From Octopus vulgaris (Eukaryota), in NCBI GenBank assembly GCA_951406725.2, contig OX597829.1, positions 9,424,001-9,488,000 on the forward strand: a stretch of 64,000 nucleotides of DNA, written 5' to 3'. How positions within the stretch are numbered: the stretch's first letter is position 1; every line of letters starts with the position of its first letter. The notes beneath the pieces were generated by a model, which was given only the letters and a program-made list of their open reading frames with translations, ran no database searches and was not told where the DNA came from. Shown here in pieces: positions 28,353-34,519 of the stretch. The position numbers and the translations under genes are program-made.

Positions 28353-28392
28353 ATAGGCGTAGGAGTGGCTGTGTGGTAAGTAGCTTGCTTAC
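28353..28392 (+). mobile_element. SINE family A head, interrupted by an insertion
   Basis: taggcgtaggagtggctgtgtggtaagtagcttgcttac, then an abrupt switch to unrelated sequence. Confidence 0.85.
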
Positions 28393-30350
28393 TTCCGGTT
28401 ACCCAGAATGCAACACTAGTTGGTCTGGACTGTTACAGTGAGAAGATGTGAATTTCGGCTCCGTGAACAGAAAAAAACAACAACAAAAAATTGTCAATTA
28501 TGGCTCGCTATAGCAAGCAAAATACTGGGTTATCATCACTGTAACGGTGAATTGAGAATTTTTGCTTGAAAATTCTTTTTGTAAATTCTAGTGGGCGTAT
28601 CTCGCCAAAAATGTACAATTTTTCCAAATAAGCCATTTGGATTACCTTTTTGGAGTATTATACAAAGGATTCCCTGTCTGTGCTATTTGTGAGGTTTTTC
28701 TTTTACTTTTCCCTTCTATTTTTTCTTTCTTTCTAAATTTTGGTTCATTCTTTTCATTACTTTAATTTCAGTTTCCTCCCCTCCTCATTTATTTTGTTTT
28801 ATTTTTTATTCGGTTTAATTTTTTGGCAGACTGTCTTTTGAACTACTTTTGAACTGTTTTTTGACATGGCAGAGAAGGAACTTAAAAAGAAAAACTCTGT
28901 CTTAGAGTGGGAAATTAACCCGCCTAAGCAGTGGTTAAAAGATATGGTGGAGAAGACGATGGTACTTAGAAATTATTCTAAAGTTCTTAATTCCATCACC
29001 GTCTTCGCAAAACAAGTTATAAAAAATGAACTTAAAGAATATTTGTCCTCTTTAAAATATATATCCCGTGGTGTCAAACATGCAACCGCATGGTTGCTGT
29101 TTGACAACGGGGAAAAGGCTCGCCAGTTTGCGAGTCAGCCTTTAGAAGGCAAGGAAATTCTGTTCCTCCCGTCATATTGTGCGAGAAAATTAATACGAGC
29201 CTGGGTATGTGGGTTACCCCCAGGTACCGACGCGGATTGGATTGAAGATACCATCCGACGGGGACTGGGGGATGGCGGGCCCAGGCTCTTAAATGTAAGG
29301 GTATTGCCGGCGGTCGATTGGGAAGGGTCAAAAGCGATTTTGACCCTGTGGACCCCATCGGCCGCACCAAATCTGGTTTTTCCAGATTTCTTGAAAATGG
29401 CTGGCTGCAGGAATCCGGTGATACTTGAGGGACGTCCCCCCAAGTGTCAGTTGTGCCTGCAGCCAGGCCACATTAAAAGGAACTGCTCCAGGACCATGGT
29501 AACGTCCTGGAACAGTCACTAGATGCCACCTCCCCTACCCGGTCAAAGGGAGAGGTGGATGCTTCAGCCTCCTCGACTCAAAAAGGATTAAAAAGGAAGA
29601 AGGTGGGCAACAATAGTTGCCTAACGAAGGAACCTAAGACTTCGGAAGCGGGGGAGAGTCTCCGGACAAAGCGGAAGAGCTCCACTCTCCCGAAGTCAGG
29701 AAGAAAAGAAAAAAAGAAGGAAGAAGAACGGGTCATCTCACCGGGGAGATGATGTGCCGACTGCATGTCCCGAAGTTGTGCCACCCACGGTGGAAGAAAC
29801 CACCCCCACCCTTAAAGATGATCAGTTATTTATCCTTTTCTATAAGGGCGGGGAGGTGGAAAAAATAGTAGAAGAACATAAAGAGACAGTAGATATGCCC
29901 TTCACATGGGATCCCGAATGGCCTCCGCAGATAGCTGTGGAGGTCATTAGGTTTCCCTTGTGGGAAAGGTTTAAAGGATTTGGGAAGGAATGTCGCATAT
30001 GGCCGGGTGGCCCTTATACGACTTACATGTCCTACATGAGTGAAGCATGGGAAATGGCGGGATACAGGAACTCAAGCGGTATTGAAGATAATGATGAATA
30101 TATCGATGGATATATCGATGAGTAGGAGGTGAAAAAGCCTAGTTAGAGGGTTTGAAACCTCATCTTATTGCATTATTTGTAGTGGTTTATAACCTCAATT
30201 GTGTGTTTAAAAAAAACATGTCAAGTAAGAGGTTTTAGTGCCTCCTACTTGTAAGAGGTTTGAAACCTCATATTGATTTTTTAAAAAAAGAAAATATGTT
30301 TTCGAGAAAAATCCAATCGGCGGGTGTTGGGTTTCGTCTCTCATTTATTC
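28393..30350 (+). mobile_element. ORF1-only L1/Tx1-like non-autonomous retroelement (HAL1-like), 3' tip missing here
   Basis: ~470 bp 5' UTR, an ORF1-like frame and an AT-rich 3' UTR with no ORF2. The 3' end with AATAAA and the TSD is at 33192-33295 on the minus strand. Confidence 0.75.
28866..30125 (+). pseudogene. ORF1p-like nucleic-acid-binding protein (RRM-like region + CCHC zinc knuckle + basic tail), broken into three ORFs
   Basis: WVCGLPPG...VILEGRPPKCQLCLQPGHIKRNC (CX2CX4HX4C) is typical of Tx1/L1 ORF1p and ZCCHC3-like proteins. It continues in 29555-29752 and 29754-30125. Confidence 0.8.
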
Positions 30351-30974
30351 ACTTGGTCACAGTCAAATGACTGAAACAAGTAAAAGAGTATAGTTAGTAG
30401 AGAGGGTTCAGTCTTAAAAGCAGTAATCTTCGTTATACTATTTGGGAGTTGTTAATTATTTTTCACTTTATGTCAGGAAGTAAACTTAATTATGGAATGG
30501 TATCTATAGTATTAGTTAGCTACCGGGTGACTATATCGCTAAGGCTTCAACAAGTTTTAATATGCTGTATTCTAGCGTTGTTTTCGTGTAAGAGAGAAGA
30601 AATATGGCAAGAGTTAAATCCACTGTAGTAGTGAACAAAGTGTAATAGCTTCCCACTGAACTGTGGAATCTAAAAGACAGCGATATACCTGTAGATATGG
30701 CTTTGAGATAAAAATGTGCGCTTAACAATGCTGTCAAAGTTGGTAAAAAAAATAAAACTAATGAAAACCAACAATAAAACAATAGTAACAAAAATAATGC
30801 AATTATCTTCCATATCACTTCGAGAAATATGCCCATAGATCAATGAATTCATAGGTTTGTAGTATTTTATATTTAATTTCAAATTTCTTACGGAATGCTA
30901 AGATTATATGCTTTGCAAATATTGATGATCCAGTTAGTAATTTTAATATGCCTCACGGATTGAAAGGGGGGAAA

Positions 30975-31113
30975 TAGTAATGGCATAAGAAAACACTCTG
31001 GTACATGCCATGGAAAAATCCCAATTGCTTTTGTCGTTGGTAATATATGCCAATCTACAGAGAAATGAAATCAAGGCAAATCGACCAGACATTGTTATCA
31101 AAGACATCGAAGG
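30975..31113 (+). mobile_element. Internal fragment of an R4/Dong-type RLE domain
   Basis: MPIY...NEIKANRPDIVIKD, the same RPD motif as in 2410-2860. Confidence 0.6.
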
Positions 31114-31457
31114 TTAATCGATTTTAGTATAGTAAGCGAAGAATTTTTAATTAATATTATTTCCGAAACGAAGAACAAGAATCTTTGGAATAGGTATCAG
31201 TTCTAGTCCTAAAGGTAAGAGATCTCTGAATTAGAAGTTCAGTCCAGCTGACTGGTTTCTACACTGCTTTTGTTAACGCAATTTCATTCACAAGGATTGG
31301 TTTCACTCAAAGCTATTGTAATAGACATTTTCTCATGATAAACAGGAAATAGGATAGAAATCATGATTGTGAAGCGAACTCCTTAAACATTCGATTCTAC
31401 CTGTATATTACATATCACAACGTACCATCTTAATAAAGTATAATGCCAAGTCTAATG

Positions 31458-33008: not shown

Positions 33009-33047
33009 TAGCACTATGACCTGGCAACGACGGGTCATAATGCTAGT
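33009..33047 (+). other. Hairpin ending CTAGT, possible Helitron/Helentron-type terminus
   Basis: TAGCACTATGACC-tggcaacgacg-GGTCATAATGCTA (12/13 bp stem), then gt-(at)n. Confidence 0.4.
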
Positions 33048-33059
33048 ATATATATATAT

Positions 33060-33204
33060 ACATATATACGACGGGCTTTCAGTTTCCGTCTACCAAATTC
33101 ACTCACAAGGCTTTGGTCGGCCCGAGGCTATAGTAGAAATCCCCTGCCCAAAATGCCACGCAGTGGGACTGAACTCGGAACCATGTGGTCGGTAAGCAAG
33201 CTAC
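33060..33204 (-). mobile_element. SINE family A body lacking its head
   Basis: On the minus strand it starts exactly at gtagcttgcttac, the complementary half to 28353-28392. Confidence 0.85.
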
Positions 33205-34519
33205 TTTATTTCATAAAATTTGTCATATAGACAGTACAAAGATTGTGTAGCTTTGCGGGCTGGACAAACACATTAATGAATGAAAATGAATTAGAATGAA
33301 TAAATGAGAGACGAAACCCAACACCCGCCGATTGGATTTTTCTCGAAAACATATTTTCTTTTTTTAAAAAATCAATATGCGGTTTCAAACCTCTTACAAG
33401 AAGGAGGCACTAAAACCTCTTACTTGACATGTTTTTTTTAAACACACAATTGAGGTTATAAACCACTACAAATAATGCAATAAGATGAGGTTTCAAACCC
33501 TCTAACTAGGCTTTTTCACCTCCTACTCATCGATATATCCATCGATTGTTGCTCGCCTTCTTCCTTTTTAATCCTTTTTGAGTTGAGGAGGCGCGCACAC
33601 ACACACACACTCGCTCTTTCTCTGTCGCTTTCTCTCTCTTTCCCCTTCTTGTGCGCACGCGCACACATACACACACTCACACTTGCACACACACACACAC
33701 ACACATATGTGCTCATGTTTGTACCCCTCCACCGCTAGACAACCGGCGTTGGTTTGCTAAGTCCCATTAACATAGCGGTCCGGCAAAGCTGTCGATAGAA
33801 TTAGTAACAGACCTAGAATATACACTGGGATCGATCTGTTCGACTAATTATACAAGGTAGTGCTCCAGTGTGGCTGCATTACACTGACTAAAACGAGTAA
33901 AACAGTAAAAGAATAGGGATCATCAATTCATTCTAAAATATGTAACAACGTTAAGAAATACTCCGTTGAAGAGATTCTATAAGACTGAACATTATAGGCT
34001 CAGGCATGGCTGAACAGTAAGAAGCTTGCTTCTTAACTATATAGCCTTGGGTTCAGTTCCACTGCGTGACACCTTGGCCAGGTGTCTTCTACTTTAGCCT
34101 TGGGCTGACCAAAGCCCTGTGAGTGGATTTGGTGGACAGAAACTGAAAGAAGCCCGTCGTATATATATATGTAGGCGAGGCTGTGTTAAGAAGCTTGCTT
34201 CCTAGCCACATAGTTCCAGGTTTAGTCCCACTGCGTGGCACCTTGGGCAAGTGTCTTCTACTATAGCCTTTGATAGACCAAAGCCTTGTGAGTGGATTTG
34301 GTAGACGGAAACTGAAAGGAGACCGTTGGGTACATGTGTGTGTGTTTATGTATGTGTCCCTGTCTTTGTCTTTGTCACCCACCACTGCTTGACAACCGGT
34401 GTGAGTGTGTTTACGCCCCTGCAACTTAGCTGTTCAGCAAAAGCGATCAAATAGAGTAGAAAAGTAACAGGCTTAACAAAAACGCAAATACTGGAGTTGA
34501 TTCATTAGACTAAAATTAG

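What the first reader, a model, noticed from the sequence alone, without database searches (positions are those of the whole stretch)
28380..33295. ORF1-only (HAL1-like) L1/Tx1 retroelement of ~2 kb with a 13-bp TSD
Seen: 5' UTR, ~420 codons of ORF1-like sequence with a CCHC knuckle, then directly a ~320 bp 3' UTR ending in AATAAA, with no endonuclease or RT. The 13-mer gtagcttgcttac precedes the 5' end (28380-28392) and follows the 3' end (33204-33192, minus strand). Known: HAL1 elements are ORF1-only L1 derivatives mobilised in trans. Inference: this is an independent ORF1-only family in a mollusc, or a retrocopy of a domesticated ZCCHC3-like gene.
Basis: partly seen in the sequence, partly recalled or inferred. 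Interest (0 to 1): 0.72.

Follow-up and report, generated by a model that had tools for sequence, protein, structure and literature searches.

The report
ORF1-only retroelement nesting in octopus SINEs
This is a broken, rearranged copy of a highly repeated 2-kb retroelement, closest to octopus proteins, that carries an RNA-binding gene but no reverse transcriptase and likely borrows another element's enzymes to insert, probably at one preferred spot inside a common short repeat (a SINE).

Summary
Core observation holds, with corrections. 28393-30351 (+) carries a 5' UTR, a frameshifted 420-codon ORF (predicted two RRMs plus one CCHC knuckle) and part of a 318-nt 3' UTR; no endonuclease or RT. 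The 3' tip survives only in a minus-strand stub (33592-33205), itself duplicated at 35332-34928. The 13-mer is not unique flank: it belongs to an abundant SINE, so the element sits inside a SINE. In 3 DNA(-like) runs summed depth over the element is about 180-2900 times that of unique flank, and two 10%-diverged contigs run from the ORF stop straight into this UTR: a multicopy ORF1-only family, not a retrogene or a one-off deletion. New point: two contigs from other copies join the same SINE position (one 5' junction, one 3' junction), suggesting Tx1-style target specificity for a SINE; a composite SINE-plus-cargo unit is the rival. It works like HAL1 but L1-clade membership is unproven (no partner RT found). 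ORF1-only LINE derivatives and target-specific Tx1 are each known; the combination was not found in nine literature searches (Repbase/Dfam not searchable). New variant of a known kind; interest 0.55.

The parts
28352..28392 (+). Head of the host SINE (A-box-like TGGCTGTGTGG), ending at the insertion site
   Evidence: blastn to other SINE copies in the window; box motifs
28380..28392 (+). Left target-site duplication (13 bp; 15 bp from 28378 if two shared A's are counted)
28393..28865 (+). 5' UTR of the element, T-rich in its second half
   Evidence: covered at multicopy depth
28866..30125 (+). ORF1, 420 codons ATG to stop, broken by frameshifts near 29485, 29643 and (inferred) 29715-29750
   Evidence: (table 4)
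28866..29519 (+). Open N-terminal piece: two predicted RRM folds and one CCHC knuckle (about 29445-29486)
   Evidence: AlphaFold pLDDT 87.5, Foldseek/VIA hits to tandem-RRM proteins, Pfam, 67% identity to an Octopus sinensis protein
29790..30125 (+). C-terminal ORF1 segment of unknown family
   Evidence: no Pfam, Atlas or profile match; model unusable, pLDDT 46
30126..30351 (+). 3' UTR, first 226 nt; cut at 30351
30352..30392 (+). SINE tail fused to the cut end of the element
   Evidence: table 7 loose ends
33205..33592 (-). Inverted stub of the element: copy of 29567-29614, copy of 30102-30351 and the only 92-nt 3' tip ending AATAAA
33192..33204 (-). Right target-site duplication
33054..33204 (-). 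SINE body following the 3' end (B-box-like GTTCAGTCCC), ending in (TA)n
34775..36690 (.). Second unit of a 1.73-kb tandem duplication (first unit 33054-34929, 94% identical) holding a second stub at 35332-34928 and a third 13-mer at 34927-34915

Best explanation
This is one decayed, locally rearranged copy of a multicopy 2-kb retroelement family that encodes only an ORF1-type protein, is likely copied in trans by target-primed reverse transcription using the endonuclease-RT of an autonomous Tx1/L1-type partner, and likely prefers one fixed site in the tRNA-like head of an abundant SINE. Shown: anatomy, multicopy depth, direct ORF1-to-UTR junction in diverged copies, the same SINE junction in two other copies. 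Predicted: the protein (RRM-RRM-CCHC) binds its own RNA and co-assembles with the partner's proteins, as proposed for HAL1/HeT-A/Ag-Sponge (PMC5786205). Inferred: transcription by Pol II from the 5' UTR; the partner nicks the SINE bottom strand at a TT/A step, the short A end of the RNA pairs with the T's, and a 13-15 bp duplication results; inserting between the SINE's A and B boxes gives a plentiful, harmless target. The split of this copy (3' tip inverted 2.9 kb away, then tandem-duplicated through SINE-SINE recombination) is inferred to be later host rearrangement.
For:: summed contig depth over nine element bins is 277-1655x (X1), 182-765x (X3), 477-2947x (X5) that of a unique-flank contig (ratios; the tool warns this is no copy number). 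X1 record 6 (30040-30243, 21 other letters) and X5 record 30 (29964-30183, 20 other letters) bridge the stop at 30125 into the UTR, while flank contigs differ by 0-2 letters per record, so these are other copies. X3 record 24 (33165-33365; 21 other letters, 7 gaps) continues 40 nt from the 3' end into the SINE body; X12 record 9 (28366-28806; 15 other letters, 13 gaps), the only X12 contig at the 14 listed sites 28452-28626, starts 27 nt inside the SINE head. Chance of one random insertion hitting a given SINE base in the right orientation is about 1.5e-4, using the 11.6% SINE share of O. vulgaris (PMC13282606) and a 400-bp unit. Depth is lowest near the 5' end (about 5,000 at 28452 against about 140,000 at 29907-30080 in X1), as 5' truncation would give. 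Fold; Atlas neighbours are eukaryote CCHC proteins and ZCCHC3-type RRM pairs. RRM+CCHC ORF1 in animals is consistent with the Tx1 clade (PMC5203782); Tx1 families target other repeats (PMC4494074); O. vulgaris has 13 recently active L1-Tx1 families, 421 insertions, mean about 5.4 kb. 23 runs of 4+ T in the element argue against Pol III read-through from the SINE head.
Against: Target preference rests on 2 external contigs among 32 pieces shown of some 493,000 laid; the list favours long pieces that fit the window, and 3459 loose ends were not shown. The X12 junction has 27 nt on the SINE side, under the tool's 31-nt bridging rule. One diverged copy seen in all three DNA runs (X1 rec 4, X3 rec 17, X5 rec 25) aligns only from 28726 and has about 167-169 further letters that fit nothing here: a 5'-truncated copy outside a SINE or a different 5' UTR. 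Depth at 29907-30080 (about 140,000) exceeds the 3' UTR (about 35,000 + 21,000 at 30222/33426), leaving room for relatives that share the ORF end but continue differently, possibly into an ORF2. No partner RT was found, type I ORF1 is not unique to L1/Tx1, and there is no real poly(A) tail. No genome was available.
Confidence: 0.55

Rival explanations
1. Composite unit: one founder inserted into a SINE, and the whole SINE-head + element + SINE-body/tail has since been amplified as one piece (Pol II read-through, SINE tail recognised by the SINE's own partner LINE); the 13-mer is an inherited scar.
For: Both external junction contigs fall at exactly the same bases as the window copy; the window copy has SINE head and tail in the same orientation; 5' extensions carried from a master locus are known for SINEU-2 (PMC4494074 passages).
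Against: 23 T4+ runs and a 2-kb gap between A and B boxes rule out ordinary Pol III transcription; the element has its own AATAAA end; the 3'-junction contig is about 11% diverged, which needs a long-lived composite.
Confidence: 0.2
2. ORF1-only non-autonomous family with no real target preference; the SINE junctions come from one or two duplicated loci or chance in a SINE-rich genome.
For: Only two external junctions seen; listing is biased; a diverged copy leaves the alignment at 28726 into non-SINE sequence. Among 300-1000 random copies 0.04-0.15 would hit the site by chance.
Against: The X12 contig is the only one covering the 5' UTR in that run, so it was not picked from many; window flanks are single-copy in depth.
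Confidence: 0.13
3. Internal-deletion derivative of an autonomous Tx1/L1 whose ordinary copies carry ORF2 between this ORF1 and this UTR.
For: Depth over the ORF end exceeds depth over the UTR; loose-end table was cut.
Against: Two copies about 10% diverged join ORF stop to UTR directly; the stub in the window does too; no longer or fused homologue found (weak evidence).
Confidence: 0.09
4. Retrocopy of a domesticated ZCCHC3-like host gene.
For: Atlas lists a ZCCHC3 RRM-pair cluster at rank 6, score 0.90; the closest protein is an annotated O. sinensis gene model with three accessions.
Against: Hundreds-fold depth over UTRs and ORF alike; diverged copies; that gene model stops at 281 aa, and a second O. 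sinensis model holds only a fragment of the ORF (P0012); no RNA enrichment over other repeats in the one RNA-guess run (ratio 0.003 against 0.006-0.010; not evidence of silence).
Confidence: 0.03

Closest known systems
HAL1 (half-L1) of mammals
   Same: Non-autonomous, encodes only ORF1p, multicopy, TSD (definition from PMC5753468 and PMC5786205 passages).
   Different: HAL1 derive from the L1 clade in mammals; here ORF1 is RRM-RRM-CCHC (type I), not Transposase_22 type, the host is an octopus-like mollusc, there is no long poly(A), and it sits at a fixed SINE site.
HeT-A (Jockey clade) and Ag-Sponge (CR1 clade) ORF1-only elements
   Same: Same bipartite ORF1-present design (PMC5786205).
   Different: Different clades and hosts; HeT-A is telomeric (recalled); no sequence similarity tested.
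Target-specific Tx1 clade elements (Xenopus Tx1 in Tx1D, Keno in U2, Kibi/Koshi in microsatellites, crocodilian Tx1-Mar in Mariner-N4) and SINEU-3 that inherits such targeting
   Same: Insertion at a fixed position in another repeat with a 10-20 bp TSD; RRM/CCHC ORF1 (PMC4494074, PMC5203782).
   Different: Those are autonomous or non-coding; none of the passages read names a tRNA-derived SINE as target or an ORF1-only passenger.
Octopod uncharacterised RRM-CCHC proteins (O. sinensis LOC115225585 67% identical; O. vulgaris, O. bimaculoides, Argonauta proteins 22-28%)
   Same: Same domain layout; 19 of 21 hits aligned or used.
   Different: No flanking DNA could be fetched, so whether they sit in ORF1-only or autonomous elements is unknown.

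Membership tests
HAL1 | Encodes ORF1p but no ORF2p | tested here: met
   No EN/RT frame; two diverged contigs bridge stop to UTR
HAL1 | Amplified as a family, not a single deletion copy | tested here: met
   Depth 180-2900x unique flank in 3 runs, diverged copies; depth is no exact copy number
HAL1 | Target-site duplication of TPRT type | tested here: met
   13-15 bp, SINE split exactly there; main copy and stub share a private allele; one locus only
HAL1 | Poly(A) tail | tested here: inconclusive
   Ends AATAAA directly on the TSD, 1-3 A's
HAL1 | Derived from the L1 clade, ORF1p related to an L1 ORF1p | tested here: inconclusive
   No Transposase_22 hit in 19 proteins; type I ORF1 is shared by several clades; no partner identified
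Tx1 clade | RT/APE phylogeny places it in Tx1 | not testable with these tools
   Element has no RT; no genome to find the partner
Tx1 clade | ORF1 with RRM and CCHC knuckle | tested here: met
   compatible but not diagnostic (PMC5203782)
Target-specific Tx1 | Over 20% of copies flanked by the same repeat (criterion in PMC4494074) | tested here: inconclusive
   2 of 2 shown external pieces that reach a terminus continue into the SINE, but the list is cut and biased; one truncated copy does not
Domesticated ZCCHC3-like gene or its retrocopy | Single or few copies with an intact parent locus | tested here: not met
   Hundreds-fold depth including both UTRs
tRNA-derived SINE (host) | tRNA-like head with A and B boxes | tested here: inconclusive
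   Box-like motifs and ARAGORN tRNA-Ser(gct) calls in 2 of 3 copies only at a relaxed 70% threshold that also gave spurious calls; no Rfam tRNA hit

The most novel reading that the evidence does not exclude
A protein-coding, RT-less retroelement family that parasitises both an autonomous Tx1-type LINE (for enzymes) and a SINE (as its fixed landing site, breaking the SINE's Pol III promoter): an ORF1-only, SINE-targeting hyperparasite with hundreds of copies, within a wider octopod radiation of RRM-RRM-CCHC ORF1 families.
Probability: 0.5. Interest if true: 0.7.

Novelty: new variant of a known kind. Interest (0 to 1): 0.55.

Why it matters
It would add an independent, invertebrate origin of ORF1-only LINE derivatives and show that such passengers inherit a partner's target specificity, here for a SINE. 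With hundreds of copies, it would make testable why non-autonomous elements keep ORF1 (selection on ORF1 across copies) and which endonuclease reads a tRNA-like hairpin. It also means some octopus 'uncharacterised CCHC' gene models are retroelement ORF1s.

Tried and rejected
No own genome held. Word-indexed protein searches: 0 hits among 538 longer candidates, 0 among 4769 with the alignment, 1092-3115 aa, 3 known hits near length; weak evidence against fused forms. Metagenome scans: 0 matches for the 3' junction motif, 0 of 207 stretches confirmed. No RNA holder on record listed; X12 is only a guessed RNA run, so expression is untested. C-terminal segment: no Atlas hit, no better than 500 shuffles against a profile of four relatives' tails, unusable model. 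Rfam found no tRNA at the SINE head. Synonymous/non-synonymous tally of the 16 listed ORF differences was 5 synonymous, 11 not: fits neutral decay of this copy but too few and pre-selected to use. Two independent insertions (main copy and stub) rejected because both share the 30222/33426 allele. Two hits (P0004, P0014) and P0012 were left out of alignment A1 as repeat-driven or fragmentary. Earlier-findings look-ups returned nothing. Bao and Jurka 2010 not held.
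Full report
Observation. The + strand from 28393 has a 473-nt 5' UTR, an ORF from ATG 28866 to stop 30125 (420 codons) and a 3' UTR. The ORF is in pieces: an open 218-aa N-terminal part, a middle part in other frames, and a C-terminal part back in the first frame. An O. sinensis protein (P0001, 67% identical) follows the first piece to residue 206 and then the next frame (E 2.8e-10); other copies carry one extra base near 29485 and near 29643 (table 4); a third shift near 29715-29750 is inferred from frame arithmetic. No endonuclease or RT frame lies in 27500-34500, and the 318-nt UTR has at most 67 open codons.

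The copy is not contiguous. It stops at 30351 and is fused to a SINE tail (30352-30392). The last 92 nt exist only in a minus-strand stub, 33592-33205, made of 29567-29614 (45 of 48 identical), 30102-30351 (248 of 250) and the tip ending AATAAA. A 1.73-kb tandem duplication (33054-34929 against 34775-36690, 94%) makes a second stub; its SINE body looks recombinant between two SINE copies (listing, by eye). Main copy and stubs share an allele at 30222/33426 that all contigs at 30222 and 20,904 of 21,170 depth units at 33426 in X1 lack (table 3), so they stem from one insertion; the rearrangement came later (inferred).

The 13-mer is SINE sequence. It occurs exactly at 4 places in the window and, of 12 SINE-head hits, 9 run through the site unbroken while 3 are the split halves around this element. 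So the element inserted into a SINE, between its A-box-like and B-box-like motifs, just after a GTAAG...CTTAC hairpin. The duplication is 13 bp, or 15 with two A's shared with the tail, which would give a TT/A nick as for L1-type endonucleases (recalled chemistry, inference). The SINE's tRNA origin is only weakly supported here (relaxed ARAGORN; no Rfam hit); that it is the common octopus SINE is recalled.

Protein. With a 19-sequence alignment AlphaFold gives pLDDT 87.5 and two beta-alpha-beta-beta-alpha-beta units. Foldseek's best hits are tandem-RRM proteins (hnRNP A1, HuR; 7 at E<=0.001); VIA-align's best is Prp24 RRM, Z 8.3, rmsd 2.4 over 72 residues, with many RRMs tied below (middling Z, sequence identity 8-20%). 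zf-CCHC is hit by 11 of 19 members. The Atlas lists eukaryote CCHC clusters (0.91-0.92) and a ZCCHC3 RRM-pair cluster (0.90). [quoted passage not shown] The C-terminal 110 aa stay unexplained.

Family or single locus. No genome is held, so I laid 4 of 24 listed runs. Flank contigs match the window at 0-2 differences per record, so the runs are of the same or a very close species. Summed depth over nine element bins is 277-1655 (X1), 182-765 (X3) and 477-2947 (X5) times one unique-flank contig; the tool cautions that this is no copy number, but the order (hundreds) excludes a single gene. Two contigs about 10% diverged bridge the stop codon into the UTR (X1 record 6, X5 record 30), so the ORF1-UTR junction is a family trait. 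Against: depth at 29907-30080 is about 2.5 times the summed depth at the two UTR mirror sites, and most loose ends were not shown, so relatives that continue into an ORF2 are not excluded.

Target site. X3 record 24 (21 other letters and 7 gaps in 194) runs from the element's 3' end 40 nt into the SINE body; X12 record 9 (15 other letters, 13 gaps) begins 27 nt inside the SINE head, and is the only X12 contig at the 14 listed 5' UTR sites. Neither can be the window's locus. A random insertion would hit that base and orientation with probability about 1.5e-4 (using 11.6% SINE from PMC13282606). Against: these are 2 of 32 pieces shown from some 493,000, chosen for length; 27 nt is under the tool's bridging rule; and one diverged copy seen in three runs leaves the alignment at 28726 for about 167 letters that fit nothing here. 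I put target preference at about even-to-better odds, a composite SINE-plus-cargo unit at 0.2; 23 T4+ runs make Pol III read-through unlikely.

Mechanism. Shown: ORF1-only anatomy, multicopy state, TSD, shared SINE junction in three copies. Predicted: RNA binding by RRM-RRM-CCHC. Inferred: Pol II transcription from the 5' UTR, trans-mobilisation by an autonomous APE-RT element, and inheritance of that partner's target choice. O. vulgaris has 13 recently active L1-Tx1 families (421 insertions, 2.29 Mb) and 80 L1-Tx1 consensus sequences (PMC13282606; first third of text, passages and its one supplement searched), so candidates exist; none was identified here.

Known kinds. HAL1 (L1), HeT-A (Jockey) and Ag-Sponge (CR1) are ORF1-only derivatives (PMC5786205, PMC5753468, passages; Bao and Jurka 2010 not held). 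Tx1 families target DNA transposons, snRNA genes, microsatellites and LTR elements, and SINEU-3 inherits such targeting (PMC4494074, passages and section 15). Nine searches gave no paper whose listing, or whose passages where read, describe an ORF1-only or SINE-targeting element in cephalopods; PMC13282606 has no mention of ORF1 or HAL1, PMC8967140 none of ORF1 (passages). Repbase, Dfam, subscription papers and repeat libraries deposited outside the supplement were not searchable, so it may already be catalogued.

Verdict. It works like HAL1; it is not shown to be a HAL1 or a Tx1 member. New variant of a known kind; interest 0.55; best explanation 0.55 (ORF1-only multicopy family alone about 0.85).

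Noticed in passing
window 32363-32868 (+): Frameshifted two-RRM ORF1 fragment of a second, related family (30-50% identical to P0002, P0008, P0016 and others); summed depth 240,000-690,000 in X1/X5, about ten times the element studied.
   Followed up: partly
window 33054-36690: 1.73-kb tandem duplication whose junction lies in a SINE that looks recombinant between two copies; could also be an assembly of two haplotypes.
   Followed up: partly
window 47422-47796 (+) and 49088-49594 (+): 28S rRNA fragment (Rfam RF02543) about 1.3 kb upstream of a frame with C2H2-like zinc-finger motifs recalled as R2-like; no Pfam hit.
   Followed up: partly
window 55469-56661 (+): piggyBac-type transposase remnant (Pfam DDE_Tnp_1_7, E 4.6e-17).
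   Followed up: partly
window 23811-25195 (+) and 51296-51781 (+): Reverse transcriptase remnants (RVT_1 E 6.6e-4 and 1.4e-8), by recall Penelope-like and RTE-like; not linked to the element.
   Followed up: partly
table 5, SINE tail to SINE head joints: Many contigs join a SINE tail directly to a SINE head (depth 770-2150), so the host SINE often lies in tandem.
   Followed up: no
proteins P0001, P0012: Two O. sinensis gene models on different contigs contain this family's ORF1 (one truncated at 281 aa, one a fragment fused to a Gypsy-like integrase model): likely mis-annotated element copies.
   Followed up: partly
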